From NCBI GenBank assembly GCA_964644485.1, contig CAZXVR010000001.1, forward strand, positions 1-42,168: DNA of 42,168 nt, written 5' to 3'. Shown in pieces: positions 8,052 to 34,759 of the stretch. The notes under the pieces are model-generated. The model saw only the letters and a program-made list of their open reading frames with translations. It did not search any database and was not told the DNA's origin. Position numbers and translations under genes: made by a program. Positions within the stretch are counted from its first letter, which is position 1. The number at the start of each line of letters is the position of its first letter. The stretch is from an uncultured Candidatus Poseidoniales archaeon. GTDB taxonomy: Archaea; Thermoplasmatota; Poseidoniia; Poseidoniales; Thalassarchaeaceae.

Positions 8052-8185
8052 ATGCCCACCGCGAACCGTCTCTCCTCCGTGCCGGTAAATGAACCATTCA
8101 CTTGCATAGCGCCCTACGGGCGCTCTACTCAGCCATCCGTTGTGTTCAAACCCACAGCCGAAGGTGGCCTGTCCGAGGTGAAGCC

Positions 8186-14100: not shown

Positions 14101-14371
14101 CCTCCCTCCAATACGTGAAGAAGGTGCTAGTCTGAGTTGGTTTGAACGGGTATTTGGGGATGGGCCATTGGTTGTCAGTCTCCTCATCCTAGCATGCACC
14201 GCATTGGGTTTTGGAACTGCTTTACTGTGGCTTCGAGAGGAAGATGAGGAAACCGATGACGAGTGGGATGGTGAAAGTCGGGACTGGCCGGACCCACCCA
14301 CTGAGTTCCCCGACGAAACTCCACCCCCAATCCCACCGGGGCTGGGGGATGTTGATGAAGAGGAAGAATGA
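8186..14371 (+). CDS. Giant (about 2061 aa) membrane-anchored surface protein / putative adhesin
   Basis: Signal peptide MRTATLLVLLMLFAPFAQA at ATG 8186. Three beta-sandwich modules carry Asp-box-like motifs (SIDGGVTW, SSDNVSW, SVDNGTSW). Each ends in GWYVDEVTI / GVFIDDMSI / GWYIDDVGV, as in InhA/MAM-like domains. A CARDB-like module (RIDVRISNLGNLGGNL) lies near the C-terminus, and NxS/T sequons are numerous. There is a single C-terminal TM helix (LVVSLLILACTALGFGTALLWL) and a 45-aa acidic/Pro-rich tail. Confidence 0.8.
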   Translation: MRTATLLVLLMLFAPFAQAIDSPYIGDSEVIVQPNGNGVLSNLTEDSFEIPVNSTIIDGWVNVSTGANGDGGTGQHWIADNPSLNFSHGEFDGTSISVFENELTLGVNHTVGRLDDLETLSLQFQQYTTGGSADVWRMSEPSQFNGAFAMNYSARQAAGGLIPSLASDGSLIAATLPEDSLPAGTYAWLTSPPSSIPTLANHWKFSFNHWYHLHHTNQSTGSSGAWVEVSIDGGVTWNYVEPIGGYNWNISSSAPVPNGASGSGFGVFGGPDASGWINSTFDITHLHHSTAIGMQHRFVVWTDPAGTVDRPGWYVDEVTISNDGETPGSWFHGSLTGEYAADAHAHLTIPIQLNTSSGTSGAWMIRYWTDFDLEGGSWDKFEVRVSSDNVSWHRMSPVGGIPGPYGLTVGGQTIMEDTGGWIEVSHPFPSSFTVPSNGSLMLRITVETDQMPSSGYGGSLDPPEGVFIDDMSITRTQAGTTDVMWSENFTTNGGYWHGLLPGGIYDQWQYLSNWGNNGPWETTWSFEGAPLIADGWHVQTPYGQAWEFGAVSNASGWGPSSWPSGQIGVAMGLDNRHAANSWSHLISPSYHIPAGASARVSFDHFICAEPGWDGGALYTSVDNGTSWQIYGQDIPLFYDVQHWNNAQSPLYQKWVWDGSNQKGGGCSSNKSFTHVEGDLSSFGGQDVMLRFSFFSDPFIEMDGWYIDDVGVIVDWFESNGSWTSDLILDNPYGFAPTIDVDANVPDSAWVKASLVDANGILLTGLYESENISYPVLPSGDSYRIRVEFGTTDHQLTPRIVGLHSGAVRILNTADGTNGWNIPPALAHDDIDGNLSNPTLNTIRISASSAYGDAPIEEVSIIAESAGAVFQLWDGQGTLLASGMLNNQSIVLPHAAVNIRPTIDLQPGGWVRYASFTGHLGAPMTNGTLDVGGDGIIDWSWDFEPYGAFGWYDGHHLQNNTSQPQWGSPWAVIDEGMVLYADADITWTWANGIHDSMQAGEYRILEYPLTSIQNQSEPSHFSFIGIAISWESTDSITELGSTLRDIQSDAVNGTGPATIHSGNLQIPIVLEADQGGVALTGSISHAQRIVNEITSVPSGTMVPDENVTIVTYHSHLFDRGLLDVAILRLQTSEGIDIEIHIDDLSGQPIATQVFGSEQMLLQSFILQPVSDASYQIQWNLQAQWTFDDQDWIRVLAEVVEFDGFTLGPGHAMIGGSNHQAMENDLEVVSWDVRDEQSRLLSNTWDARYPLHAKAGSTIDVSGVVRFEGQANQHPSADAYRVALELETNNGTLQSIGQSGIGGHFDASIELPMTPGNVSISPWILQIGPSGIPTLGAEDASGGSLSIEVRVDSGHPSLGPLMIHTPEGGQLADGNILSPERTIPFWIEVHDDELLQSFVNLRCWFETYDDVDQDGIPDEIEYGESMQFLGGAPRGTIRVDFPAVSIAGMEDGDRISCYIDGSDFAGFPYSDAGEPGFDNDLATMVIETQQPTQVSLPSITLDRHEDMALLQGIEHTFSFTFQDGNGLNSIDLIEIDVSGDGQGIIQYYPLQDRLTTDEESSIVPLDIVTESLGDDAYRVAVSFAIDFHAPDAWLEGAWVPSLRMIEDGELVSSGATNLEHLGWALDNRLMWNVDEILDLTIPSMPAYENRLNLQPGDSMHFQASVSHRETNVPLAIHLPTFSEIHVTIEGGTNPYSALHESNGAGFSATIDFEIGHWPGPIHMVQFGLANKSDLNSSLPDMAFEVAIDNVAPRIEFQSTSLVHLRSDTLNNQLVAFTVIDEGGMGDQGLEVHWKFRRGGIDIIGSEGHMDMGLGVHSDSSWVYSNYVDFTPATDVYPNDLLLVWVEGQDLAGNALEGPGTQDIPRIPAFEVMHFTPELLSIWTDPPAPEVGQNIRIDVRISNLGNLGGNLTAGIWAWESRTNTGLQIIDLSSQNISLDPRQATLVSFQFEAWREGDLQVYLILDENESSRIPIDLPPIREEGASLSWFERVFGDGPLVVSLLILACTALGFGTALLWLREEDEETDDEWDGESRDWPDPPTEFPDETPPPIPPGLGDVDEEEE

Positions 14372-19165: not shown

Positions 19166-21748
19166 TTGTTCAAACCTATGGCGGTTAAGTATCAGAAGAA
19201 TTCGAACGCGCTAACGGGGATGGGACCCTTGAGTGTCAGCAGGGAGAACTTGGCAGAGTTAAGAGCACGTCACACAACCGGCACGTCCGGTTCGTCTGAA
19301 ATGCACACACCGTCCCTTGAAGACGTTCAATCTTTAGATGACAGACTCAATGATGAGAGGCGCATGCGCACCTCTCTAAAGAGGGAGAGACGCCTTCGAT
19401 TACAAGAGCAAGCAGAACGCCTTTCAGGGATGAAGGGAGCGCTGGCAAAAACAGCAGGAATGCAGACAGAAAGTGCCCTCGCTGAAATTGAGGCAGAACT
19501 GCGTTCAGATATGGAAGACGAACTCGAACGACTTGAACGTGATACACTTGAGCGAGAGGAAGCAGTTCTCCGTGATGAGATGAAATTGCGATTGACCCGT
19601 GAAGAAGAATCCATCCGCTCTCGTCTTGAATTAGAATCAACTCGACGTCTAGAAGCACGTAGAGACCAACTACGATCTCAATTGAAGGACGAAATGGATT
19701 CAGAATTTGACCGTAGACGTTCCTTCCTAGAGGAGCGCCTTGAGATCGAAGCAGGTCAAGAGATGCAAAGGCAAATCCGAGATATCGAGGATCAACTGAA
19801 AGGCGAGATGTCGAATCGCCTGGACGAAGAAGAAAGTGCTCAAGCTCGTCGGATTGAAGATGCTCAACAGGCGCGCTTAGCAGAACGTGAAATACAACTC
19901 AGAGATGGTATCCGCCGTCGTTTAGAACAGCAACTCCGTCAGCGCCTCCGCGAACGTGAGGCACGTCTACGAGCGGAGTATGAGAGGCGCGCTCATCGCT
20001 TAGAGGAACAAATTGCTCAAGAACTGGCAACAGAGCTTGAAACTCGTCTAACACAAGAAACGGAACGCCTTGAGGGTAGGATGCAAGAGGACTTGGAACT
20101 TGCAGTCGCGCGAAGGCGTGAAGAATTACAAGCGTCGATTCTCAAGAGTTTGGATTCCGATTATGGTGACCGCCTCGCTCTTCGAAAGCAACGACTGAAG
20201 GAGAGATTCGATGTATCATTCTCACACGCAATTGATGAAATCGACCGCGCCCTGCATCTGGAACTTGAAGATACAGTAAGTGATCGAATCGATTCTGAAT
20301 TTGAGCAGTATCAGTCCGATCGCGAGGCTGAAATTGCACAACACCTCAGTCAGTTTAGGCATGATCGTGAATTGGACCTCCGCGAACAACTTGACAAGCA
20401 GTACGCGGAAAAGAAAGACGAATGGGTGTCTCAAATCGAATCCGAGTTTTCTGCTCGTCAGCAGGCATCAGAGCGTCAGATCATGGCTGAAATCGATTCA
20501 AGAATTCGCAATGAGCGAATTGCTCAAGAAACCAATCTTGACCTCATTAAACAAGAAACAAGCCTCGATTTGGAGGTCGAGATGGAAGCCGAATTGGCAG
20601 CCTTCCGTGCTCAGAAGGAGCAAGAGGTTGCAGAACAACTCGAGAGACAAGTCGCCAAGCGCGAAGAAATCATGCGAAACAAAGCTCTCATTGAAGTTCG
20701 AAGAAAGGAAAGTGAAATTCGTGCGGAGATTGAAGCACAACTCGCAATCAAGCGAGCAGAGATTCGCGATCGCTTGAACCAACTCGAATCGAGGGCTGAA
20801 GAATTCCGTGTCGCAGCAGAAGAAAAACTCCGTGTAGAACTTGAGAAGGGCCTCATCACAGAAGATGACCTTGAAGCAGAAGCTGAACTCAAGCGCGCTG
20901 AAGAAGAAGCCGAACTTGAAGGAAAGGATGGCCGCTTAGATCGCCGTCAGGCGTGGATGGATGCACTCGCGGGTGCGAAGGGGCAGATGCCTGGAACCGC
21001 AGCAGGGGCGGCACCAGCATTGGGCCAATCCCGAGGTGGACTGGGTAGTCTTGCCCGATCAGGAGGACTCGGTTCGGCTCCAAAGTCAGTAAGTGAGGAT
21101 TCACCACGCACTCTAGCAGCCCCAGTTCGTGCACCTGTTCAACAAACGGGTGCTCTTGGAGCAGGAACACTTGGTTCAGCACCCAAGCCTGCTGGGGGAG
21201 GATTGGGGTCGTTACAACCCGTTCGCCAGCCGATTAAGGTCACAGAGCCTGAAACCAAACCCGCTCCGGAACCAGAACAGATGACCGAAGAAGAATTTGA
21301 TTCCGAGCCCGAACCCCAAGTGGAGGAAAAACCCTCTTTGACACAAACAATTCTCAGTGCTATTTCAGAAGAAGAGGAATCCACTGTAGAACCAACTCCT
21401 CCTTCAGAGGAAACTCCGGATTTCTCCGAAGTAGTCAAATCAACACGTGGCCCACCTGGAGGTGGCCGCCTCGTTCGTGAAGGAGCTCCCAAGAAACCTG
21501 CTGGAGGCCCACCATCAAAGGGCCCGCCGGTGTTGGAAACCGAAATTGCAACCGACGAAGAAGATGAGCCCAAGACACTCGCGCCGGTGCAACGCCCAGT
21601 ACTGCAACCGGTGGCTCGCAGAGTATTGGCACCAGTAGATTCGGCTGAAACTGAGGAGCCTGAGGATGAGGAACCAGTAGTACTCAAGCCAGTTGGCCGA
21701 GCCATTCTGAAGCCGATTAGTGAATCGGGTTCTGAAGAAGAAGAATGA
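19166..21748 (+). CDS. Hyper-charged E/R/K-rich long-helix (coiled-coil or single-alpha-helix) protein with a Pro/Gly/Ala-rich acidic tail
   Basis: An uninterrupted E/R/K/Q/L-rich stretch of about 540 aa (residues about 55-595, e.g. RLEQQLRQRLREREARLRAEYERRAHRLEEQIAQELATELE). A low-complexity PAG-rich region follows, and the protein ends ...SESGSEEEE. No TM helix, signal peptide or NTPase motif. Start is TTG 19166 or ATG 19178. Confidence 0.7.
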   Translation: MFKPMAVKYQKNSNALTGMGPLSVSRENLAELRARHTTGTSGSSEMHTPSLEDVQSLDDRLNDERRMRTSLKRERRLRLQEQAERLSGMKGALAKTAGMQTESALAEIEAELRSDMEDELERLERDTLEREEAVLRDEMKLRLTREEESIRSRLELESTRRLEARRDQLRSQLKDEMDSEFDRRRSFLEERLEIEAGQEMQRQIRDIEDQLKGEMSNRLDEEESAQARRIEDAQQARLAEREIQLRDGIRRRLEQQLRQRLREREARLRAEYERRAHRLEEQIAQELATELETRLTQETERLEGRMQEDLELAVARRREELQASILKSLDSDYGDRLALRKQRLKERFDVSFSHAIDEIDRALHLELEDTVSDRIDSEFEQYQSDREAEIAQHLSQFRHDRELDLREQLDKQYAEKKDEWVSQIESEFSARQQASERQIMAEIDSRIRNERIAQETNLDLIKQETSLDLEVEMEAELAAFRAQKEQEVAEQLERQVAKREEIMRNKALIEVRRKESEIRAEIEAQLAIKRAEIRDRLNQLESRAEEFRVAAEEKLRVELEKGLITEDDLEAEAELKRAEEEAELEGKDGRLDRRQAWMDALAGAKGQMPGTAAGAAPALGQSRGGLGSLARSGGLGSAPKSVSEDSPRTLAAPVRAPVQQTGALGAGTLGSAPKPAGGGLGSLQPVRQPIKVTEPETKPAPEPEQMTEEEFDSEPEPQVEEKPSLTQTILSAISEEEESTVEPTPPSEETPDFSEVVKSTRGPPGGGRLVREGAPKKPAGGPPSKGPPVLETEIATDEEDEPKTLAPVQRPVLQPVARRVLAPVDSAETEEPEDEEPVVLKPVGRAILKPISESGSEEEE

Positions 21749-21754
21749 GCCGGG

Positions 21755-21773
21755 CGCACCCCTTTGGGGTGCG
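21755..21773 (+). other. GC-rich stem-loop between the coiled-coil gene and the WD40/TSP3 gene
   Basis: cgcacccc-ttt-ggggtgcg, a perfect 8-bp stem with a 3-nt loop, 7 nt after the stop at 21746-21748. No following T-run. Confidence 0.35.
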
Positions 21774-21793
21774 GATAGTTGGCTGAACAAGCC

Positions 21794-24205
21794 ATGCGCT
21801 CGATTGAAAGGGAGAGACGTTTTCGTCCAGACATGCGCGCGCGTGCGTTTGCATTATTTGCGCTCCTTTTCGGAGCGATTGCATTGCCCCTCATACCTAC
21901 TGCCTCCGCCTCGATTGAGGATTTGGGCACAGCTGGAAAAGTAGCAGATATAGATCAGTCAGCAATCGGTTGGTGGACTCTAGAAAATGGCAATATTCTG
22001 GTGGCAAGTTTGGATGGTTACGTTACAGCATATGCGGTTCAAGACAATGGTAGTTATGCGGAAGTTTGGAGTGAATTTACGAATGAGACTCACTATTCAG
22101 CATCATACAATGAAGATGACAAATTATTGGCGGTCGGGACATCATCGGGTGCCTGCGTTATTTCGATTGAATTTATGGAAGAACTCTATCGGTTTAGTGT
22201 CGGGCAAACAGTTGACGCATTGGCGTGGGATCGTGATGGTGATCTATGGGTTACCATGCGAACATCAAAGCAAGCAGTGGAATGGGATGCTCAAGCCAAC
22301 ACACCGTCTGGAATCTCTACGAGCAGCCACTCCAATGGTATCACCAGCATCGTCACTCTTTCAGATGGACATATACTAACATCTGGCAGAGACAAGCAAA
22401 TCAGAGTTCATGATGAAAATGGTTCACTAATCGACGTGCTGGTAGATTCTTCATTCCCACTATTGAAATTGTTTACCAACAACGATGAATCGTTATTGTT
22501 CAGCCTCACTGACAATTGCAGATTGGATATTCATAACACATCCAGTTGGGTCAGAGAGCAATCAATGCCTCTCTGCTCCATCGGACAAGGCCGGTCATTG
22601 GAACAAATCGGTGATAGGTTGATGGTTGGTATGTCGAATGGAAAAGTCTTCTCAATCGACCTCAGCACACTAACCAAAGAACAGGATTTTACCGTACAAG
22701 GAGAGGTTGTTGGATTCCGTGCGGCTGATGGTGCGGGGGTTTTCATCCTGACATCGTTTAGTTCGGCATCAGAAGTCCACCTTCTCGATGCAGATCGTGA
22801 CAACGATGGTATCGTAGATGGTCTCGATGTGTTTCCAGATGATTCATCAGAATGGGCTGACTCAGATTTCGATGGAATAGGAGATAACTCCGATGCTTTC
22901 CCACAAGATGGCACTGAAACCATGGATTCAGATGGAGATGGTGTTGGTGATAATGCCGATGCCTTCCCAGAAAATCCTACACAGCAAGTAGATTCGGATG
23001 GCGATGGCTATGGTGATTATGAGTATGGATTGGATGGCGACAAATTCCCCTCTGATCCAACACAGTGGGCTGATTCAGATGGCGATGGCTATGGAGATAA
23101 CCAGGAATTAGGCGCAACAGAACCTGATGCCTGTATCAATCAATCGGGTGGCTCCACCATGGACAGACTCGGTTGTCAAGATACAGATGGTGACGGTTGG
23201 TCAGATCCTGGAAATGGAGACGCTGCTCACCCAGAAGGGAACTCGGATGCATTCTACATGGACGACAGTCAATGGCGGGATACAGATGGTGATAATTACG
23301 GTGACAATTTGAGTGGATACCGTGGAGATGCCTGTCCAACGATGGCCGGTAATAGTACAAGGGCAAATATGTATGACCCTGGTGTAAACGCGTATACCTC
23401 AATCAATCGCTATGGTTGCGTAGATGAAGACGGTGACGGTTACGATGACAATACCGAATCTTCCTTCGATGGGTGCACTATGGTTGGAATTCGAACAGAA
23501 TGGCTTGACCATGATCGCGACTGCGCAGGAAGCAACAGTGACTACAATGACACCGACCCTGAGATTCAAACCCTCGAGGACCACTGTGCCAAACATGTAG
23601 ATGATATTCAGTCATGTAGTGCCTTAGAGGAAGAAGATGACTCTGACAATAATATCACGTATTTGGAAGACGAAAAGGGCGTAGATATGATGGAGTCAAT
23701 CAAGGAATTTGCTGTGATTGCAGGATATCTCGTAGGTGTCATGGCCGTTGCGATGTTGATGATCGTCGGCACGGTAAAAGTCATTGGAAAGGTTCGGGAA
23801 AAGCGTAAGCCCGATGCACAATACACACATCAGGACGCTACGCGTGAATTAGATGCGTGGGAAAGTGGTGATGACTTTGAAACTCGAGGTGGGATTGATG
23901 AGCAGAAGGCTTGGGGTGACGATCACATCGATGAAGATCCTGCTAGTGATTCAGATATGGAGGAAGGAATCTTTGAGGATGAAGAAGAATCAACTGACCC
24001 AGCCTCTACTGAACTAGATTATACCACTGAAATGGACCAATCCACGGAAACTGAATCAGCACCTGAACAGAGTCCTGAACCCGAAACACAACAGCCACCT
24101 GCAGAAGCTCCTCCTCTACCGCCTGGTGGTTTACCAGAAGGCTGGACAACAGAACAATGGCGATGGTATGGACATCAGTGGCTAGAACGCCATGGTGGAA
24201 ATTGA
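21794..24205 (+). CDS. Type-I membrane protein: extracellular WD40-like beta-propeller plus thrombospondin type-3 (Ca-binding) repeats, one TM helix, acidic cytoplasmic tail
   Basis: Signal peptide MRARAFALFALLFGAIALPLIPTASA; start candidates TTG 21779, ATG 21794, ATG 21833. WD-like blades (HILTSGRDKQIRVHD). Repeated DSDGDGxGDNxDAFP units. TM FAVIAGYLVGVMAVAMLMIVGTV. The tail ends PPLPPGGLPEGWTTEQWRWYGHQWLERHGGN. Confidence 0.8.
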   Translation: MRSIERERRFRPDMRARAFALFALLFGAIALPLIPTASASIEDLGTAGKVADIDQSAIGWWTLENGNILVASLDGYVTAYAVQDNGSYAEVWSEFTNETHYSASYNEDDKLLAVGTSSGACVISIEFMEELYRFSVGQTVDALAWDRDGDLWVTMRTSKQAVEWDAQANTPSGISTSSHSNGITSIVTLSDGHILTSGRDKQIRVHDENGSLIDVLVDSSFPLLKLFTNNDESLLFSLTDNCRLDIHNTSSWVREQSMPLCSIGQGRSLEQIGDRLMVGMSNGKVFSIDLSTLTKEQDFTVQGEVVGFRAADGAGVFILTSFSSASEVHLLDADRDNDGIVDGLDVFPDDSSEWADSDFDGIGDNSDAFPQDGTETMDSDGDGVGDNADAFPENPTQQVDSDGDGYGDYEYGLDGDKFPSDPTQWADSDGDGYGDNQELGATEPDACINQSGGSTMDRLGCQDTDGDGWSDPGNGDAAHPEGNSDAFYMDDSQWRDTDGDNYGDNLSGYRGDACPTMAGNSTRANMYDPGVNAYTSINRYGCVDEDGDGYDDNTESSFDGCTMVGIRTEWLDHDRDCAGSNSDYNDTDPEIQTLEDHCAKHVDDIQSCSALEEEDDSDNNITYLEDEKGVDMMESIKEFAVIAGYLVGVMAVAMLMIVGTVKVIGKVREKRKPDAQYTHQDATRELDAWESGDDFETRGGIDEQKAWGDDHIDEDPASDSDMEEGIFEDEEESTDPASTELDYTTEMDQSTETESAPEQSPEPETQQPPAEAPPLPPGGLPEGWTTEQWRWYGHQWLERHGGN
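22787..23564 (+). repeat. Coding tandem repeats: thrombospondin type-3-like DxDxDGxGD Ca-binding units
   Basis: At least 8 reiterations of D-[ST]-D-G-D-G-x-G-D-N-x-D-x-F-P-like units in the translation (DSDFDGIGDNSDAFP, DSDGDGVGDNADAFP, DSDGDGYGDY, DSDGDGYGDN, DTDGDGWSD, DTDGDNYGDN, DEDGDGYDDN ...). Confidence 0.75.
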
Positions 24206-29767: not shown

Positions 29768-30151
29768 TCAGTTTAGTGCATCGGTGTGACCTTTCACACC
29801 GTTGAAGGCATCTTCAGCGCCTTTGGCAACTTCCATCAATGCGATGGCAGCAGTCTTTGCACCACTGTTCATTCCGGCCGCTTCAGCCAAGTAGGATTGG
29901 TCTTCCACGTAGATGAAAGGGATATTCTTCTCTTTGCAGATGAGAGGGACGTGCGCCAGCAACTCTGCTGGGTTCACGTTTTCTGCCATAACAACCATCT
30001 TCGCAGTGCCGCGTTCTGCTGCTTTGGTCACCTCATTACTGCCTTTCTTCAACCGACCGTTTCCGTTGCCTACAAGCTTCACGAGTTCGTAGACACTGTC
30101 TTGGACGTCTTTCGGGGTTTCAAATGCTATGTGTACACTCATTGGATTCAC
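29768..30151 (-). CDS. rpl7ae: 50S ribosomal protein L7Ae (kink-turn binding)
   Basis: LKKGSNEVTKAAERGTAKMVVMAENVNPAELLAHVPLICKEKNIPFIYV. Confidence 0.93.
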   Translation of the reverse strand: MNPMSVHIAFETPKDVQDSVYELVKLVGNGNGRLKKGSNEVTKAAERGTAKMVVMAENVNPAELLAHVPLICKEKNIPFIYVEDQSYLAEAAGMNSGAKTAAIALMEVAKGAEDAFNGVKGHTDALN

Positions 30152-30188
30152 TCCTCATGTTTGGTAAGCCGCCGCACGGCGTGTCCCG

Positions 30189-30194
30189 TATAAA
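30189..30194 (-). promoter_or_regulatory. Candidate TATA box for the rpl7ae operon
   Basis: The minus strand reads ggaTTTATAcggg about 40 nt upstream of the rpl7ae ATG (30151). A gaggag SD-like element lies 8 nt before the ATG. Confidence 0.35.
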
Positions 30195-30238
30195 TCCAAC
30201 TGAAGATTACAAGATCTCATCTGTGGGCAATATTCGCC

Positions 30239-31135
30239 TCAATGCAGTTGTTTGCCTACACTTTCAACCCATCTGATTGGTATGGTGAAATTGTTTTGCT
30301 TGTTCTCAGGCCACGGCCTTCGACCTTCCATTCTCGCCATGTAATCTGCAACATTTACCCGCCATATGGAATCGATTTCAATCGGCGAGTTGAAGTTTGC
30401 ACAAATGATTGCATCATTCCTAGTAATGCGATACATATTTTCTTCAGTGAGATGGGTGACCTGAAATTTCCCGCTTTTACTCGTTAGATATTCAAAAACC
30501 GCTCCACTCTTATCTCTTGCATCAGCATCCTTTGAACCGACAATAATTTCATGTCCCAATTTTTCTGCAATGAGAATTTCACGGATTCGTCCTTTTAGAG
30601 TGATGTCCCCAACTCCAAAATCGGTAACGGCAATTTCCTGGGCTTTTCGCAACTCAGAAATGAACACACTTTCGCCCGAATCACTACTGACTTCAATTGC
30701 TCTACCATTCTTTTCAATCCATGAAATTCGAAAGTGGATCATAATATGTCCATTCGTTTTTTTCGTTGTTTGAAATGCCTGCCTACATTGTTCAGATATC
30801 TTTGACATTTCCACTCGCCATAATCGGGAAATAGAAAAAGGCGAATCGAATTCTGCGAAAATCCAATACTCTGTATCTTGTAGAAGGTGTTCAAATCCGA
30901 TGTCCAATTGAGCGTTCATTTCACCCCATCCTCCCAATGAGAATGTTTTGTATTCAACTTGATTTCCCTTCCCGTCAATCGCATCCTTTCCTTTCTTCCC
31001 TAGGATTAGTGTGTGTCCCATGTTCTTCGAAATTTGATATTCTCGTATGAACCCAGGTTGGAAGGGATCAACCATGTTCGAGTATTCAGCAATGGCTGCA
31101 TTGTAAGCAGCATCAATGTGTTTCTGAAATGTCAT
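30239..31135 (-). CDS. Tandem-duplicated (single-chain) PvuII-like PD-(D/E)XK nuclease
   Basis: Two homologous halves of about 150 aa. Half 1: GFIREYQISKNMGHTLILGKKGKDAIDGKGNQVEYKT ... IFAEFDSPFSISRLWRV ... FRISWIEKNG. Half 2: GRIREILIAEKLGHEIIVGSKDADARDKSGAVFEYLT ... ICANFNSPIEIDSIWRV ... FTIPIRWVESVG. Half 1 reproduces the PvuII catalytic spacing (PvuII D58-x9-E68-x-K70, NDAVDNAGQEYELK; here D51-x9-E61-Y-K63). The C-terminal NNFTIPIRWVESVGKQL resembles PvuII NNPKIPVKYVMEHGTKI. The gene is visibly more AT-rich than its neighbours. Confidence 0.6.
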   Translation of the reverse strand: MTFQKHIDAAYNAAIAEYSNMVDPFQPGFIREYQISKNMGHTLILGKKGKDAIDGKGNQVEYKTFSLGGWGEMNAQLDIGFEHLLQDTEYWIFAEFDSPFSISRLWRVEMSKISEQCRQAFQTTKKTNGHIMIHFRISWIEKNGRAIEVSSDSGESVFISELRKAQEIAVTDFGVGDITLKGRIREILIAEKLGHEIIVGSKDADARDKSGAVFEYLTSKSGKFQVTHLTEENMYRITRNDAIICANFNSPIEIDSIWRVNVADYMARMEGRRPWPENKQNNFTIPIRWVESVGKQLH

Positions 31136-31185
31136 GAAGGGGGGATTCCCTCCCCTGTAGTAAATGTTTCAATTCAAATTCACAA

Positions 31186-32151
31186 TCAGAGGACACGTTC
31201 AATCAAGGAATTGACGCCTCTAGCGATGGCCGGTGCTCCACTGACTACCGAACGTGGGTTGGGCAGAGAATCAGTTGCATGCACACCATCTACATGGTTT
31301 GAAAGTCGCGTAATTGCGCCCCCTGTGAAGAGTCCGTGGGTGCATGCAGCGTGGACTGCTTTGGCACCCTGACGGCGAAGGGCATCGCTGGCCTTGCAAA
31401 TCGTGCCACCAGTCGAAATCATGTCATCGACAATGGCCACGATTGCCCCATCAACATCCAAATCCTTGGCTTTGTGCTCAATAGTGTGCGCATCAATTCT
31501 GGTTTTTTCTAGGTAGGAGAAGTTGCAACCGATGGCGCTTGCGACATGGCTCGCTCGTTCGATGGCCCCTTTGTCCGGACTTAGTACAAAATCAGGGTTG
31601 ACCGTGTTTTGGAGGTGGATGGCAATTTCAGGCATTGAGGATACGAATTCAACTGGGACATCTAGATCTTCAAGAACAGCTGGAGCATGAAGGTCCAATA
31701 CAACCATTCCATCACACCGGCGAGTCAATAGTCTTGCCAAGAGGTTGGCTGAAACAACTTCGCCACGTTGGAAACGTTTGTCTTGTCGTGAGTATCCAAA
31801 GTAAGGGACGGCGAGGAATATACCAGGTCCAACATCATCGAGCGTTTGCTCGCCCTCCCCTTTCAGATTGCGCATATCACCTCGTCGAACATCGTGAATC
31901 GATTCCAACATCAGCAAAGCCTCTACGATACCAGAATCGGGAAATGTTGTTGCCACCAATACAACAGGCTCCCTTCGGATGGCCTCAATGCTTTCCTGGG
32001 GCACGCGAACATAACCTTCCGAGTCGGGAAATCGGCGAACTTCAAGCGGGTGGTGTTCCCATCCCAATTGGTCGGCCAAGGCTGCTGCCAATTCAGCAGC
32101 ATTGCTCCCTGAGACGACTGCCATGTGTGGTTCCCAGAGACGGCTGTTCAT
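31186..32151 (-). CDS. prs: Ribose-phosphate pyrophosphokinase (PRPP synthetase)
   Basis: VVSGSNAAELAAALADQLG, PYFGYSRQDKRF, and the PRPP-binding loop AIVDDMISTGGT. Start is ATG 32151 or 32124. The 377-aa ORF from 32319 runs through the tRNA-Ile gene and is rejected. Confidence 0.9.
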   Translation of the reverse strand: MNSRLWEPHMAVVSGSNAAELAAALADQLGWEHHPLEVRRFPDSEGYVRVPQESIEAIRREPVVLVATTFPDSGIVEALLMLESIHDVRRGDMRNLKGEGEQTLDDVGPGIFLAVPYFGYSRQDKRFQRGEVVSANLLARLLTRRCDGMVVLDLHAPAVLEDLDVPVEFVSSMPEIAIHLQNTVNPDFVLSPDKGAIERASHVASAIGCNFSYLEKTRIDAHTIEHKAKDLDVDGAIVAIVDDMISTGGTICKASDALRRQGAKAVHAACTHGLFTGGAITRLSNHVDGVHATDSLPNPRSVVSGAPAIARGVNSLIERVL

Positions 32152-32192
32152 GTTGTTTCCCGTCTGACCACGTCTTGTTTGAGCAGGAAAAG

Positions 32193-32267
32193 TGGACGAG
32201 GCAGGATTTGAACCTGCGACCTCCCGGTTATCAGCCGGGTGCTCCAGCCAACCTAAGCTACCCGTCC
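32193..32267 (-). tRNA. tRNA-Ile (anticodon GAU), CCA not encoded
   Basis: The minus strand reads ggacggg-ta-gctt-aggttggctgg-agca-cccgg-CTGATAA-ccggg-aggtc-gcagg-ttcaaat-cctgc-ctcgtcc-a, a cloverleaf with one G-U pair in the acceptor stem. Confidence 0.88.
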
Positions 32268-32315
32268 AGAGCAATCCGGCGACCGATGCCCCCGAATTAA
32301 CGATGACGGTTCCAC

Positions 32316-32903
32316 TCAATCCTCAAGAATGCCTTCGTTAATCTGAATATAACTAGGCAAGGAACGTAGTTTTTCGTATGTTCTTGAGAGTACGACTTCA
32401 TCCAACCGCGCTCTTGTGCGTGCTAGCGCGGTAACGGGGATATCGATGGTTTCACCGAGGGAATAACGACGGCGAACTGCAGATCGTAGTTTCACAGTGA
32501 TGCCTCGATATGTTCGCTTGACCTTGACCAATCCGATGACGACACCAAGTTCCATCCCATCGTCATCCAAGACAGCTCTATCAAGAAGTTCGTCCGGTGC
32601 GTAGAGTTGTTCTTCAATTCGCACCGTGTTTCTCCAACGTCTTTGTAATTCACGCATCGACTTTGAGAGTTTGACCGAACCATCATCCTGGATTGAGTGG
32701 ATCAATTCCTTCGATAGTGGTGCGTGCTCAGCCGGCTTGCGCATGTATTCCTCTGCGACATTTGGTTGCACTTGTATCCTCATCGAACGAACCCGATCTT
32801 CGTTGGGGTGGTATCTTTCCCCTACTATGGTTCCAACGAGGTTTTCACCAACGTATACTTCTCTTTGTAGAAGTTCCTGTATTCTGTAATTGTCATCTGC
32901 CAT
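32316..32903 (-). CDS. PRC-barrel domain protein (two PRC-like modules)
   Basis: LLQREVYVGENLVGTIVGERY and LLDRAVLDDDGMELGVVIGLV match the PRC-barrel pattern l.g..V.d.dG..lG.V.d. Start placed at ATG 32903 (MADDNYRIQ...). Confidence 0.6.
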   Translation of the reverse strand: MADDNYRIQELLQREVYVGENLVGTIVGERYHPNEDRVRSMRIQVQPNVAEEYMRKPAEHAPLSKELIHSIQDDGSVKLSKSMRELQRRWRNTVRIEEQLYAPDELLDRAVLDDDGMELGVVIGLVKVKRTYRGITVKLRSAVRRRYSLGETIDIPVTALARTRARLDEVVLSRTYEKLRSLPSYIQINEGILED

Positions 32904-32995
32904 TTTTTCGTCTCCTATTGCAGCATCCCATCCTGCTTGTCCACGCACGGGTCGATTGGGCTATTAAACCATCCCATTGCGAAATTAAATCAGTT

Positions 32996-33180
32996 GTTCA
33001 ATTGAAAAAGGCTGATAATCCTATAATTTTCAATTGAATATTCGATAATACGCCCAGATATGCATTTGTTCATTTTCAATTGGAAATGGCGGATAATTGT
33101 GCATTATCAGCCAATTTGAAAATTGACTTCCACAGGAGCGCAATTTCATTTCACCAATTGGTAAATACAATTCAAATTAC
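32996..33180. promoter_or_regulatory. Cluster of CAATTG-core motif copies in an AT-rich divergent intergenic region
   Basis: gttCAATTGaaaa (32999), ttttCAATTGaata (33031), ttttCAATTGGAAAT (33077), CCAATTTGAAAATTG (33111), caCCAATTGGtaaa (33155), aCAATTCaaatt (33168). There are also three GATAAT boxes, one of them in the inverted repeat gataat-tgtgc-attatc (33092-33108). Confidence 0.5.
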
Positions 33181-33223
33181 CCCAATATTCTGGGCGGATT
33201 GAAGTTTGTTCCGGCGAACATTG

Positions 33224-34759
33224 ATGGATACCCTTCCTTTCGAATCGAACATGCTGGAGCATCTTTTGGGGATTCGAGACCTCACGAATGGTTCTTCAGC
33301 TCAAACCACTGGGTTATCCGATGACGTAATCAAACGCTTTCTGTTCAAGACTGACGACGGCGAACCTTCCAAATTGATGCATGCGATTGCGGAAGCAGTA
33401 ATCTCCTTCGATCGCCTGGTCGCAGAATTTGGCATTGAGTATCTGGCTCAAGACGAAGCAACACTTGTCTCTTCTGTCCAAGCTGATTTGATTAATTTTT
33501 ATTCACCAGCAACCATCAACCCCTACGTGGCCATTGCAGCCCGTGGGCCGTGGATTATCACATCAAAGGGAGCCGTACTTCACGACAATGGAGGGTATGG
33601 TATGTTAGGGAGTGGACATGGTCCAGATGCAATCATTGAATCGATGTCCGAGAATTGGGTAATGGCAAATGTCATGACTCCCTCATTCAGCCAGAAACGC
33701 CTAACCGATCGCCTCCGCTCTGAATTGGGTCATACGCGTGGAGATTGTCCATTTACTCGTTTCATTTGTATGAACAGTGGTTCTGAATCAGTGACTGTCG
33801 GTTTGCGAATTGCAGATGTAAATGCAAACAAGCAGACTGGCCCAGGCGGTAGATACGATGGTAAACCAATCAAACTTCTCGCCATTGAACAAGCATTCCA
33901 CGGCCGAACCGATCGCCCGGCCCAAATCTCTCATTCCTGCAAAGATGGTTATGACCAAAATTTAGCCACATTCCGTGATCGCGACAATTTGTTGTTGGTC
34001 CCACCGAATGATGTCCAATCTCTTGAGGCCGCTTTCGCTAAAGCCGAACAAGAGGGTTTCTTCATTGAGATGATGGCAATTGAACCCGTTCAGGGTGAAG
34101 GCAATCCTGGCCAATGTGTAACCAGGGAATTCTATGACACCGCTCGTCGTTTGACTCTTGAGCATGGCAGCCTGCTTCTCGTGGATTCTATTCAAGCTGG
34201 TTTGCGCGGCCAAGGGACCCTTTCAATCATCGATTATCCGGGATTTGAGGACTGTGATGTCCCCGACATGGAAACTTGGTCTAAGGCGCTCAACGCGGGT
34301 CAATATCCATTGTCTGTTCTGGGTATGGGTCCTCGGGCTGCCGAACTCTACGTCGTTGGCATATATGGCAATACAATGACGACGAACCCCAGAGCTCTTG
34401 AAACCGCGATTGCAGTTCTTGATCGTGTTACTCCTGAGTTGAGGAAAAACATCCGAGATCGGGGGGAGGAATTGGTCGAGAAGTTGGAGCTACTAGCAAC
34501 TGAATTACCGGATGTCATCATCAAGGTTCAGGGCACTGGTCTGCTATGCTGTGCGGAATTGAATCCAGATACGCACCCCGTTGTTGGTTTTGGTCAGGTT
34601 GAGGAAATGTGTCGAAAGAATGGGCTTGGCATCATTCATGGAGGCCAAAACGCCCTGAGGTTCACTCCTCATTTTGAGATTACATCGGAAGAGATTGATT
34701 TGGTCGTTGACCTTGTTCGAAAAACCCTCAACCAACACACTGCAAGCAGTTCTGAGTGA
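33224..34759 (+). CDS. Class-III (omega-type) PLP-dependent aminotransferase, divergent
   Basis: MNSGSESVTVGLRIA, AFHGRTDR, EPVQGEGN, LLLVDSIQAGLRGQG (in place of the DE[VI]QTGxGRTG motif), SKALNAGQYPLS (candidate PLP Lys), GNTMTTNPRA. The N-terminal extension is about 100 aa. Start is ATG 33224 or TTG 33206. Confidence 0.8.
   Translation: MDTLPFESNMLEHLLGIRDLTNGSSAQTTGLSDDVIKRFLFKTDDGEPSKLMHAIAEAVISFDRLVAEFGIEYLAQDEATLVSSVQADLINFYSPATINPYVAIAARGPWIITSKGAVLHDNGGYGMLGSGHGPDAIIESMSENWVMANVMTPSFSQKRLTDRLRSELGHTRGDCPFTRFICMNSGSESVTVGLRIADVNANKQTGPGGRYDGKPIKLLAIEQAFHGRTDRPAQISHSCKDGYDQNLATFRDRDNLLLVPPNDVQSLEAAFAKAEQEGFFIEMMAIEPVQGEGNPGQCVTREFYDTARRLTLEHGSLLLVDSIQAGLRGQGTLSIIDYPGFEDCDVPDMETWSKALNAGQYPLSVLGMGPRAAELYVVGIYGNTMTTNPRALETAIAVLDRVTPELRKNIRDRGEELVEKLELLATELPDVIIKVQGTGLLCCAELNPDTHPVVGFGQVEEMCRKNGLGIIHGGQNALRFTPHFEITSEEIDLVVDLVRKTLNQHTASSSE

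What the first reader, a model, noticed from the sequence alone, without database searches (positions are those of the whole stretch)
30239..31135. Natural single-chain (tandem-fused) PvuII-like nuclease with one degenerate catalytic site and no methyltransferase in sight
The 298-aa product is an internal duplication, and the two halves align along their whole length. Shared blocks are G.IRE..I...(L/M)GH..I.G.K..DA.D..G...EY.T, then I.A.F(D/N)SP..I..(L/I)WRV, then F.I...W(I/V)E..G. Each half resembles the PvuII type II restriction endonuclease as I recall it: NDAVDNAGQEYELKS, WIFAIY..I..IYRL, NNPKIPVKYVMEHGTKI. Half 1 keeps the PvuII catalytic triad at the same spacing (D51, E61, K63 versus D58, E68, K70). 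Half 2 keeps the acidic residues (DARD...FEY) but has Leu where the Lys should be. PvuII works as a homodimer, so a covalently fused pseudo-dimer with one crippled site could be an asymmetric cutter, a nickase or a domesticated DNA binder. The gene is visibly more AT-rich than its neighbours. It sits alone between the rpl7ae promoter and prs/tRNA-Ile, both core genes, and no DNA methyltransferase is in the window. CAGCTG (the PvuII site) is not avoided locally; it occurs for example at 625-630.
Basis: partly seen in the sequence, partly recalled or inferred. Interest (0 to 1): 0.75.

Follow-up and report, generated by a model that had tools for sequence, protein, structure and literature searches.

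The report
Natural single-chain PvuII-like endonuclease, solitary and mobile
A marine archaeon carries a roughly 1-kb inserted gene for a restriction-enzyme-like protein in which the two halves of a PvuII-type dimer are fused into one chain, and unlike its relatives it travels between genomes without any protective methyltransferase, so it may be a natural nicking or otherwise non-lethal site-specific nuclease.

Summary
ORF 30239-31135(-) encodes 298 aa made of two homologous halves (BLASTP E=7e-13). The AlphaFold model (pLDDT 90) superposes on the engineered single-chain PvuII, 3KSK (TM 0.74/0.71, E=4e-17). Half 1 has E32/D51/E61/K63. Half 2 has E186/D205/E215 with Leu217 at the Lys position.

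The "decayed site" argument needs revising. Leu together with an Arg-Asn motif (R239-N240) is the ancestral state of a large PvuII-like clade, and bacterial single-domain members of that clade sit beside methyltransferases. Both halves descend from this clade, and half 1 is the derived copy. Half 2 does, however, uniquely lack a Lys four residues before the Asp. All 65 single-domain members keep that Lys, so impairment of half 2 remains plausible.

The gene is a ~961-bp, AT-rich, ORF-only insertion (30225-31185) between the prs stop codon and the rpl7ae promoter. Three sister Thalassarchaeaceae lineages have the site empty. A homologous cassette is 99.9% identical in unrelated flanks. dN/dS is about 0.13. 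No methyltransferase was seen in any of about 8 contexts. Tandem relatives with Lys in both halves (123 clusters, all "hypothetical") had two adjacent methyltransferases in 3 of 3 contexts checked.

Verdict: a new variant of a known kind. Most likely it is a monomeric endonuclease for an asymmetric site with one working catalytic centre.

The parts
30225..31185 (-). Inserted cassette (~961 bp, boundaries +/-5 bp): a 50-bp leader, the 897-bp ORF and a ~14-bp tail. It replaces nothing but sits 0-4 bp after the prs stop codon. GC is 0.41.
   Evidence: Alignment with the empty prs-rpl7ae spacers of L029, L030 and L033. GC values.
30239..31135 (-). ORF of 298 aa plus stop codon: a tandem (single-chain) PvuII-family PD-(D/E)XK endonuclease.
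30695..31135 (-). Half 1 (residues 1-147). It has the canonical site E32 (31040-31042), D51 (30983-30985), E61 (30953-30955) and K63 (30947-30949), plus K47 at D-4 (30995-30997). It has no RN motif. Recognition-element motifs are FQPG, WGxxN and NGH.
30668..30694 (-). Natural inter-domain linker (residues 148-156, EVSSDSGES), with locally lower pLDDT (~81).
   Evidence: It is analogous to the short Gly/Ser linker of the engineered scPvuII (own knowledge of Simoncsits 2001, which is cited in PMC4081073).
30242..30667 (-). Half 2 (residues 157-298). It has the variant site E186 (30578-30580), D205 (30521-30523), E215 (30491-30493), L217 (30485-30487) and R239-N240 (30416-30421). Ser201 (30533-30535) sits where Leu-type single-domain proteins have Lys. 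Recognition motifs are TLKGR, FQxTH and QNN (N281-N282, aligned to PvuII N140-N141).
31136..31185 (-). 50-nt leader between the prs stop codon and the ATG. It contains an extended Shine-Dalgarno-like GGAGGGAATCC, resembling the one in front of rpl7ae (GGAGTGAATCC). Co-transcription with prs is likely.
   Evidence: Sequence read directly. The function of this leader is inferred.
30226..30238 (-). Near-palindrome GGCGAATATTGCC immediately after the stop codon, forming the 3' end of the insert.
   Evidence: Its function is unknown.
30188..30194 (-). The rpl7ae TATA box (TTTATAC). It is host sequence, conserved in both empty and filled sites.
31186..32151 (-). prs (ribose-phosphate pyrophosphokinase, 321 aa), the upstream host neighbour.
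29768..30142 (-). rpl7ae (124 aa), the downstream host neighbour.

Best explanation
SHOWN. The ORF encodes two PvuII-fold PD-(D/E)XK domains joined by a ~9-residue linker. They are predicted to pack like the two subunits of a PvuII dimer, so the protein is a natural single-chain PvuII-type endonuclease. It is carried on a ~961-bp, AT-rich, ORF-only cassette inserted just after the prs stop codon in a Thalassarchaeaceae (Marine Group IIb) archaeon. Sister lineages have the site empty. A homologous cassette occurs at 99.9% identity in unrelated flanks. The gene is under purifying selection. No methyltransferase accompanies it.

INFERRED. The DNA-reading motifs of the two halves differ (FQPG / WGxxN / NGH versus TLKGR / FQxTH / QNN), so the monomer should bind an asymmetric site, with each half reading a different half-site. 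Half 1 (E32, D51, E61, K63) is a complete canonical catalytic centre. Half 2 keeps the three acidic residues and the R239-N240 motif of the Leu-type clade, but it has a Lys neither at the canonical position (L217) nor at D-4 (S201). It is the only domain class in the superfamily with no Lys at either position.

My best reading is that half 2 binds DNA, probably with a metal ion, but cleaves poorly or not at all. The enzyme would then nick one strand of an asymmetric site. A nick is repairable, which would explain how the cassette can enter and persist in genomes with no protective methylation. Whether the nicking serves defence or the cassette's own spread is open.

Confidence by component: architecture, insertion and solitary status about 0.9; asymmetric site about 0.7; a single working catalytic centre (nickase) about 0.45.
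For: Internal repeat: E=7e-13. AF2 model: pLDDT 90.3, pTM 0.86. Foldseek: 3KSK single-chain PvuII E=3.6e-17, TM 0.74/0.71 over 316 columns; PvuII monomers TMt 0.61-0.77. The Leu-type profile that includes half 2 hits PvuII residues 11-157 at E=5.7e-5, and scPvuII at 4e-11.

Active-site census of 190 domains: Leu at the Lys column always co-occurs with RN (67 of 67 complete domains). All 65 single-domain Leu-types have Lys at D-4, and all 14 tandem half-2 domains have S, Q or P there.

Methyltransferase linkage: K|K tandems had two PF01555 MTases adjacent in 3 of 3 contexts checked, in three phyla. Bacterial Leu-type single-domain genes overlap an upstream PF01555 MTase gene. K|L tandems showed none in the window or in L001, L002-6, L007/26, L022, L023/24, L028 and L041.

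Insertion and mobility: empty sites in L029, L030-32 and L033/34. The cassette L001:9901-11072 is 99.9% identical in other flanks, with the same breakpoints in 4-5 independent assemblies.

Selection: omega 0.136 (window vs L035, dS 0.67), 0.095 for half 1, 0.132 for half 2, and 0.131 for L001 vs L023. The ORF is intact in 10 of 10 population copies.

Precedent: dimers engineered to have one active and one inactive site, scPvuII among them, behave as nickases (PMC4081073).
Against: E186, D205, E215, R239 and N240 of half 2 are invariant even in the distant K|L tandems P0013 and P0017. That is more conservation than a dead site would be expected to keep. The Leu+RN configuration must be active in the MTase-linked single-domain homodimers, so R239 rather than Lys(D-4) may be the functional substitute for the canonical Lys. 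In that case half 2 would cut.

No coordinates of the model were available, so I could not measure which residue reaches the metal site. Only three K|K contexts and two independent bacterial Leu-type single-domain contexts were inspected. Phage single-domain relatives are also solitary. An unlinked methyltransferase elsewhere in the genome cannot be excluded. No biochemical test was possible.
Confidence: 0.5

Rival explanations
1. Both catalytic centres work. Half 2 uses R239/N240 in place of the Lys, as the Leu-type single-domain enzymes must. The monomer then makes double-strand breaks at an asymmetric site. The host survives either because the site is long or rare, so the gene behaves like a free-standing homing endonuclease promoting its own spread, or because protective methyltransferases are encoded elsewhere in the genome.
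For: All three acidic residues plus RN are invariant in half 2 across deep divergence. Leu+RN single-domain genes are coupled to MTases, so that site type is presumably active. K|K tandems are genuine R-M nucleases with two MTases. The ORF-only cassette has sharp ends, empty alleles exist, and it appears in multiple loci at 98-99.9% identity, all of which resembles a homing-type selfish gene.
Against: No MTase appears in about 8 contexts. The cassette moves alone between backgrounds of 42-59% GC, which an unprotected 6-8 bp double-strand cutter would not survive. PvuII-type half-sites are 3 bp each, so a long, rare site is not expected. Lys(D-4), strictly kept in 65 of 65 single-domain Leu-types, is lost in 14 of 14 half-2 domains. 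No sequence is shared between the insertion sites. The gene has been retained vertically under omega ~0.13 for dS ~0.7-1, which is not typical of the homing-endonuclease cycle of gain and decay.
Confidence: 0.25
2. It is a modification-dependent (Type IIM/IV-like) endonuclease that cuts only foreign DNA carrying a base modification, and so needs no methyltransferase. This would resemble the BisI/NhoI/Eco15I family, whose closest canonical relative is PvuII.
For: NhoI and Eco15I-Ntd are the next-best structural matches after PvuII (E=6e-6 to 4e-4). The BisI family is PvuII-like, has no MTase, and senses methyl groups without base flipping (PMC11347163). The gene is solitary and mobile, like many Type IV genes.
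Against: The protein is much closer to PvuII and to the MTase-linked Leu-type clade than to BisI enzymes. The BisI signature PD-QXK is absent; the motifs here are E-Y-K and E-Y-L. BisI enzymes are symmetric homodimers reading palindromic methylated sites. No PADLOC Type IV model matches.
Confidence: 0.15
3. It is a domesticated, non-catalytic sequence-specific DNA-binding protein, for example a regulator acting near the ribosomal-protein operon.
For: It is fixed in the population between core genes, inherited vertically and under purifying selection, and likely co-transcribed with prs.
Against: The complete canonical E/D/E/K set of half 1 is conserved family-wide. Homologous cassettes sit in unrelated loci next to unrelated genes, so there is no conserved regulatory partner. 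Recent horizontal movement at 99.9% identity does not fit a domesticated host regulator.
Confidence: 0.07

Closest known systems
Engineered single-chain PvuII (scPvuII; PDB 3KSK; Simoncsits et al. 2001, cited in PMC4081073)
   Same: Two PvuII-fold domains in one polypeptide joined by a short linker. The whole-chain superposition gives TM 0.74/0.71, E=3.6e-17. Variants with one inactivated site were used as nickases.
   Different: scPvuII is man-made from two identical subunits and reads the palindrome CAGCTG. Here the halves are only 29% identical, carry different recognition motifs and different active-site variants, and are a product of natural evolution.
PvuII restriction endonuclease (Type IIP, Pfam PF09225)
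   Same: Same fold and dimer-like arrangement. D51/E61/K63 align to D58/E68/K70. R239-N240 align to R95-Q96, and N281-N282 to N140-N141. The profile-level match is E=6e-5.
   Different: PvuII is a homodimer with an adjacent M.PvuII methyltransferase and C protein. The window protein scores below the Pfam gathering threshold (21.4 vs 25 bits), is a monomeric tandem, has Leu in one site and has no MTase.
Unannotated tandem K|K PvuII-like proteins of Patescibacteria, Nanoarchaeota and Zixibacteria (e.g. P0309, P0282, P0356)
   Same: Same tandem architecture at about 325 aa. They are also natural single-chain forms.
   Different: Both halves have complete E-D-E-K sites, and each of the three contexts checked has two adjacent N6/N4 MTases, so they are ordinary R-M systems for asymmetric sites. 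They arose from independent duplications. All are annotated 'hypothetical', and I found no paper on them.
Single-domain Leu-type PvuII-like REases (e.g. L008:9977-10474, L010:9983-10462, P0015)
   Same: Same D...E-Y-L plus R-x-x-R-N active-site variant as half 2. They are the nearest relatives of both halves.
   Different: They are ~160-aa presumed homodimers that keep Lys at D-4. In bacteria they are translationally coupled to an MTase.
BisI family (NhoI, Eco15I), modification-dependent Type IIM enzymes
   Same: PvuII-like fold, solitary, no MTase.
   Different: They have a PD-QXK motif and are symmetric homodimers that need 5mC. Structural similarity is weaker (TMt ~0.5).
Monomeric LAGLIDADG homing endonucleases (I-SceI, I-DmoI) compared with homodimeric I-CreI (own knowledge)
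   Same: Same evolutionary logic. Duplication and fusion of a homodimeric nuclease gives a pseudo-dimeric monomer free to read asymmetric sites. These are also free-standing or mobile ORFs with empty alleles.
   Different: The fold and catalytic chemistry are unrelated. Homing has not been shown here.

Membership tests
PvuII endonuclease family (Pfam PF09225) | Scores above the Pfam gathering threshold (25 bits) | tested here: not met
   21.4 bits, E=2.7e-4, with only residues 18-67 aligned. Half 2 alone gave no hit. Some relatives do pass: P0016, P0098, P0020 and P0054.
PvuII endonuclease family (Pfam PF09225) | Homology to PvuII over the whole domain | tested here: met
   The Leu-type profile A3, with half 2 as its first sequence, hits PvuII residues 11-157 at E=5.7e-5 and scPvuII at 4e-11. 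phmmer of the whole protein hits 3KSK at E=3.3e-4.
PvuII endonuclease family (Pfam PF09225) | PvuII fold and PvuII-type subunit arrangement | tested here: met
   Foldseek gives TM 0.74/0.71 to scPvuII over 316 columns and TMt 0.61-0.77 to PvuII monomers. This rests on a predicted model with pLDDT 90.
PvuII endonuclease family (Pfam PF09225) | Catalytic D...E-x-K in each subunit | tested here: inconclusive
   Met in half 1 (D51, E61, K63). Half 2 has D205, E215 and L217. Leu plus RN is a conserved alternative in MTase-linked relatives.
Type IIP restriction-modification system | Homodimer acting on a palindromic site | tested here: not met
   It is a single chain with two diverged halves (29% identity) that carry different recognition-element motifs. 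The target site itself is not testable with these tools.
Type II restriction-modification system (any subtype) | Cognate DNA methyltransferase gene adjacent | tested here: not met
   No MTase domain in the 25 large ORFs of the 42-kb window that were scanned. None next to homologs in L001, L002-6, L007/26, L022, L023/24, L028 or L041. An unlinked MTase elsewhere in the genome could not be tested.
BisI family (modification-dependent Type IIM) | PD-QXK catalytic motif and homodimer | tested here: not met
   The motifs are E-Y-K and E-Y-L, whereas the BisI family has QVK/QIK (PMC11347163).
BisI family (modification-dependent Type IIM) | Cleavage requires modified cytosines | not testable with these tools
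   This needs biochemistry.
Free-standing homing endonuclease genes | Mobile ORF with filled and empty alleles at a conserved locus | tested here: met
   prs-rpl7ae is filled in the window and L035 lineages and empty in L029, L030-32 and L033/34. The P0002 cassette is 99.9% identical in at least 2 loci.
Free-standing homing endonuclease genes | Enzyme cleaves the empty allele at or near the insertion point, with spread by repair | not testable with these tools
   No motif is shared between the insertion sites. Long vertical retention under omega ~0.13 argues somewhat against this.
Natural nicking endonucleases | Only one functional catalytic centre per DNA-bound unit | tested here: inconclusive
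   Half 2 has Lys at neither the canonical position nor D-4, but its acidic residues and RN are invariant. Settling this needs an assay.

The most novel reading that the evidence does not exclude
The K|L tandem family is a previously unrecognised class of selfish or defensive element. It would be an ORF-only, ~1-kb cassette encoding a monomeric pseudo-dimeric nuclease with a restriction-enzyme fold. It would nick (or cut) an asymmetric site with one canonical and one disabled or non-canonical catalytic centre, and it would spread between Marine Group II archaeal genomes without any methyltransferase, integrase or transposase. In effect this is a free-standing homing or nicking endonuclease that evolved from a Type II restriction enzyme by duplication and fusion.
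Probability: 0.3. Interest if true: 0.8.

Novelty: new variant of a known kind. Interest (0 to 1): 0.6.

Why it matters
Single-chain PvuII was built in the laboratory in 2001, both to break the symmetry of a restriction enzyme and to make nickases and programmable nucleases. This result shows that nature has made the same construct at least three or four times.

The forms with two canonical (Lys-type) sites come with two methyltransferases, as expected for asymmetric targets. That makes them a ready source of new asymmetric specificities. The archaeal K|L form pairs two different active-site variants and travels alone. If it is a natural strand-specific nickase, it would be a compact new reagent. 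It would also show how a restriction enzyme can escape its dependence on a methyltransferase.

The work also exposes a Leu-type PvuII clade in which the textbook catalytic Lys is replaced. The candidate substitutes are Lys at D-4 or Arg of the RN motif, which gives a testable case of active-site residue migration in PD-(D/E)XK enzymes. Finally, it documents recent gene-cassette exchange among uncultured Marine Group II archaea.

Tried and rejected
1. The full-length family profile A1 against PDB gave no hit. A domain-level Leu-type profile was needed.
2. NCBIfam has no model for any class. PADLOC gave only a weak generic REase_II hit. PHROGs gave two families of unknown function.
3. tblastn against plasmids (P0020) and phages (window protein) found nothing. 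A viral-contig scan for the window family found nothing. The BFVD fold search gave only weak uncharacterised single-domain hits.
4. The genome and metagenome scans with A1 found few loci. The family is small, with 11 clusters.
5. Within-population dN/dS was uninformative, with only 2-4 substitutions. I used L035 and L023 instead.
6. I looked for terminal inverted repeats, target-site duplications or a shared insertion motif at the cassette ends. None was convincing. The TCAGAGG/CCTCTGA palindrome around the L001 insert is not seen in the other contexts.
7. The G-rich element in the leader, which I first read as a hairpin, is better explained as an extended Shine-Dalgarno sequence like the one in front of rpl7ae.
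8. CAGCTG avoidance is neither significant nor informative, because the recognition motifs differ from those of PvuII.
9. An early regex-based domain census was noisy and was replaced by an HMM-based one.
10. I rejected assembly chimerism as the explanation for the multiple contexts, because the same breakpoints recur in 4-5 independent assemblies and L006 spans both junctions.
Full report
**1. Observation**

The ORF at 30239-31135 (minus strand, ATG start, 298 aa) is real. Its two halves align with each other at 29% identity over 129 residues, BLASTP E=7e-13. Eleven homolog clusters exist. Ten are full-length proteins of about 300-346 aa with the same two-half layout, and the eleventh (P0003) is a 189-aa fragment.

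In that family D51, E61 and K63 of half 1 are conserved in every sequence that covers them. D205, E215 and L217 of half 2 are invariant.

The gene is AT-rich. The insert is 0.41 GC, prs is 0.52 and the rpl7ae-ndk block is 0.51. None of the 25 large ORFs of the window that were scanned has a DNA methyltransferase domain. The neighbours are archaeal housekeeping genes: PolB, EF-1alpha, aIF5B, ndk, L24e, S28e, L7Ae, prs, deoxyhypusine synthase, UvrB, UbiA and UbiD. CAGCTG is not significantly depleted, with 5 occurrences against 9.7 +/- 2.9 expected.

**2. Is it PvuII-like?**

Direct sequence evidence is marginal. Pfam PF09225 scores 21.4 bits against a gathering score of 25, and only for residues 18-67 of half 1. 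Half 2 alone gives nothing. phmmer against PDB finds 3KSK at E=3.3e-4.

The stronger evidence comes from structure and profiles.
- An AlphaFold2 model built on the family alignment is confident, with pLDDT 90.3 and pTM 0.86. Both halves show the same order of helices and strands.
- Foldseek against PDB puts the engineered single-chain PvuII (3KSK) first, at E=3.6e-17 and TM 0.74/0.71 over 316 columns. So both the two domains and their mutual arrangement match a PvuII dimer.
- PvuII monomers follow (TMt 0.61-0.77), then the PvuII-like BisI-family enzymes NhoI and Eco15I, then RecU and Hjc.
- A profile of half 2 plus 40 single-domain relatives hits PvuII over residues 11-157 at E=5.7e-5, and scPvuII at 4e-11.

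HMMER aligns D51/E61/K63 with PvuII D58/E68/K70. My multiple alignment also puts R239-N240 on PvuII R95-Q96, next to Tyr94. Tyr94 lies at the active site; that is my own knowledge, and PDB 1NI0, the Y94F mutant, is among the hits. The same alignment puts N281-N282 on N140-N141.

The natural linker is residues 148-156, EVSSDSGES.

**3. The Leu is not simple decay**

A profile search of 1.84 billion representative proteins found 155 relatives. An HMM-based census of 190 domains shows two coherent active-site classes.
- K-type domains have D...E-x-K and never have the R-N motif. PvuII itself has R-Q at that position.
- L-type domains have D...E-Y-L and always have R-x-x-R-N (67 of 67 complete domains).
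- L-type single-domain proteins also always have a Lys four residues before the Asp (65 of 65).

In bacterial genomes the L-type single-domain genes overlap the stop codon of an upstream PF01555 N6/N4 methyltransferase gene. This is seen in L008 (Flavobacteriaceae) and L009/L010 (Elusimicrobia), and L010 has a second MTase downstream. They are therefore the nuclease of classical R-M systems, and that site type is presumably active.

Both halves of the window protein are most similar to L-type single-domain proteins: 22 of the top 30 hits for half 1 and 30 of 30 for half 2. So half 2 retains the ancestral configuration. Half 1 is the derived copy, having gained K63 and lost RN while keeping K47 at D-4.

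What is unique to half 2 is Ser201 where the single-domain proteins have Lys. The same loss (S, Q or P) is seen in all 14 half-2 domains of K|L tandems, including the distant P0013 and P0017. Half 2 of K|L tandems is thus the only domain class with Lys at neither position. It still keeps E186, D205, E215, R239 and N240 invariant.

**4. Tandem forms are common and correlate with methyltransferases**

A profile of the other tandem proteins retrieved 424 clusters at E<=1e-10. They come mostly from Patescibacteria, with some from Nanoarchaeota, Zixibacteria and Oligoflexia. Every one that carries a source name is called "hypothetical".

Of the 127 tandems classified, 123 are K|K, with E-D-E-K in both halves. 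Four are K|L: two members of the window family, P0013 and P0017.

All three K|K contexts inspected, in three phyla, have exactly two adjacent PF01555 methyltransferases. This is the arrangement expected when an asymmetric site needs one methylase per strand (own knowledge of Type IIS/IIA systems). It is independent support for the idea that fused PvuII-like halves read asymmetric sites.

Comparison of halves shows at least 3-4 independent duplications: P0023, P0054/P0106, the CPR group and the window family. I found no paper describing natural tandem PvuII-like enzymes.

**5. The window gene is a solitary mobile cassette**

The host is a Thalassarchaeaceae archaeon (Marine Group IIb), judged from prs homologs.

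All 9 contigs, from several samples, that share the identical L7Ae and reach far enough upstream carry the gene at prs-X-rpl7ae. A lineage with 84% identity in the protein (L035) has the same gene-then-rpl7ae arrangement. Sister lineages with 90%, 86% and 78% prs identity (L029, L030-32, L033/34) have prs followed by rpl7ae after about 85 bp.

Alignment of filled and empty sites shows that the native spacer is preserved downstream of the gene. The insert is therefore about 30225-31185 (~961 bp): a 50-nt leader with a host-like extended Shine-Dalgarno sequence, the ORF, and a 14-nt tail with the near-palindrome GGCGAATATTGCC. It landed 0-4 bp after the prs stop codon.

Homologs sit in unrelated neighbourhoods: M28 peptidase and RCC1-like, a double-zinc-ribbon protein, purL/purQ-like, RtcB-like, archaeosine-TGT-like and formyltransferase. 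None has a methyltransferase motif or domain nearby.

The P0002 cassette (L001:9901-11072, 1172 bp, GC 0.43) is 99.9% identical in contigs whose flanks are unrelated (GC 0.42-0.59). The breakpoints are identical in 4-5 independent assemblies, and one contig (L006) spans both junctions. A third context is 98% identical. This argues for recent horizontal movement of the gene alone, not for assembly chimeras.

**6. Selection and history**

dN/dS is 0.136 for the window versus L035 (dS 0.67). It is 0.095 for the half-1 part covered by L035 and 0.132 for half 2. For L001 versus L023 it is 0.131. The ORF is intact in 10 of 10 population copies.

rpl7ae dS is 1.07 between the two filled lineages, and 1.4-2.4 to the empty ones. 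This is consistent with one old insertion followed by vertical retention. The protein is therefore functional and maintained.

**7. Mechanism**

Shown: the single-chain PvuII-type fold; one canonical catalytic set; one Leu-type set lacking both candidate lysines; different recognition motifs in the two halves; and a solitary, mobile gene under selection.

Inferred: monomeric binding to an asymmetric site. My preferred reading (about 0.45) is that only half 1 cuts, giving a strand-specific nickase. The reasons are as follows.
- (i) Half 2 is the only domain class without a Lys at either position.
- (ii) K|L tandems are the only class never seen with a methyltransferase, and a nick is tolerable without protection.
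- (iii) Dimers engineered to have one dead site, including scPvuII, do nick (PMC4081073).

The main counter-argument is the invariance of the half-2 acidic residues and RN. If Arg239 is the true Lys substitute, both sites would be active. In that case the enzyme would be a double-strand cutter that survives through a rare site (homing-like), through unlinked methylases, or through dependence on DNA modification. The BisI family shows that a PvuII-like fold can be modification-dependent and lack an MTase. These rivals are listed with their tests.

**8. Comparison and novelty**

It works like scPvuII and like monomeric LAGLIDADG enzymes: duplication and fusion of a homodimeric nuclease.

It belongs to the PvuII superfamily by fold and by profile. 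It fails the Pfam threshold, it is not a homodimer, it lacks the Lys in one site and it has no MTase. I therefore file it as a new variant of a known kind rather than as a PvuII-family R-M enzyme.

The "degenerate site" argument has to be re-based on the loss of the D-4 Lys, and it remains untested. The architecture itself turns out to be widespread but unannotated.

Noticed in passing
L036:4162-7309 (Candidatus Sungbacteria, GCA_000998135.1): One of the two MTases flanking the K|K tandem nuclease is a 444-aa fusion of a LexA-type DNA-binding domain, a Peptidase_S24 domain and N6_N4_Mtase. This may be a self-regulating or SOS-cleavable methyltransferase.
   Followed up: no
L039:4071-8051 (Candidatus Kuenenbacteria): The MTase / tandem-nuclease / MTase unit lies next to a large serine recombinase and a terminase-like gene. 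This R-M system therefore appears to ride on a prophage or integrative element.
   Followed up: no
L001:9866-9900 and 11073-11079: Removing the P0002 cassette from L001 would join ...AACTCAGAGG to CCTCTGAAATGG, forming the 14-bp palindrome TCAGAGG/CCTCTGA. Further CCTCTGA copies lie just upstream. It may be a hairpin or terminator, or a target; it is not seen in the other contexts.
   Followed up: partly
L042:3986-5022 (IMG/VR UViG, 135-kb phage contig): A solitary Leu-type single-domain PvuII-like gene (161 aa) has no MTase nearby. It lies beside a dUTPase/dCTP-deaminase-like gene and downstream of epimerase and glycosyltransferase genes. This hints at a phage with modified DNA that uses such a nuclease against host DNA.
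   Followed up: no
window 31186-32319 and 32192-32267: The mechanical 377-aa ORF for prs runs through tRNA-Ile(GAT). The real prs is 321 aa (31186-32151), as called in related contigs. The 56-residue N-terminal extension is an artefact.
   Followed up: yes
window 8102-14371: A giant 2089-aa ORF whose only Pfam hit is an InhA-like MAM domain. It is probably a secreted or surface protein typical of Marine Group II.
   Followed up: no
window 19166-24205: Two adjacent large ORFs of 860 and 808 aa. The first has no Pfam hit. The second has only sub-threshold WD40/beta-propeller matches.
   Followed up: no
window 32800-33400: A second AT-rich stretch (GC 0.39-0.41) at the divergent intergenic region between the 210-aa ORF (32316-32948, minus strand) and the class-III aminotransferase gene (33206-34759). 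It is probably promoter DNA rather than another insertion.
   Followed up: no
window 30143-30165 and 31138-31155: The inserted gene and rpl7ae are both preceded by an unusually long Shine-Dalgarno-like element, GGAG(G/T)GAATCC, close to the full anti-16S complement. The foreign cassette's translation signal matches the host style.
   Followed up: partly
P0056 (364 aa): A Leu-type PvuII-like domain (residues ~201-360) is fused to an unrelated ~200-residue N-terminal region. This is another architecture in the superfamily.
   Followed up: no
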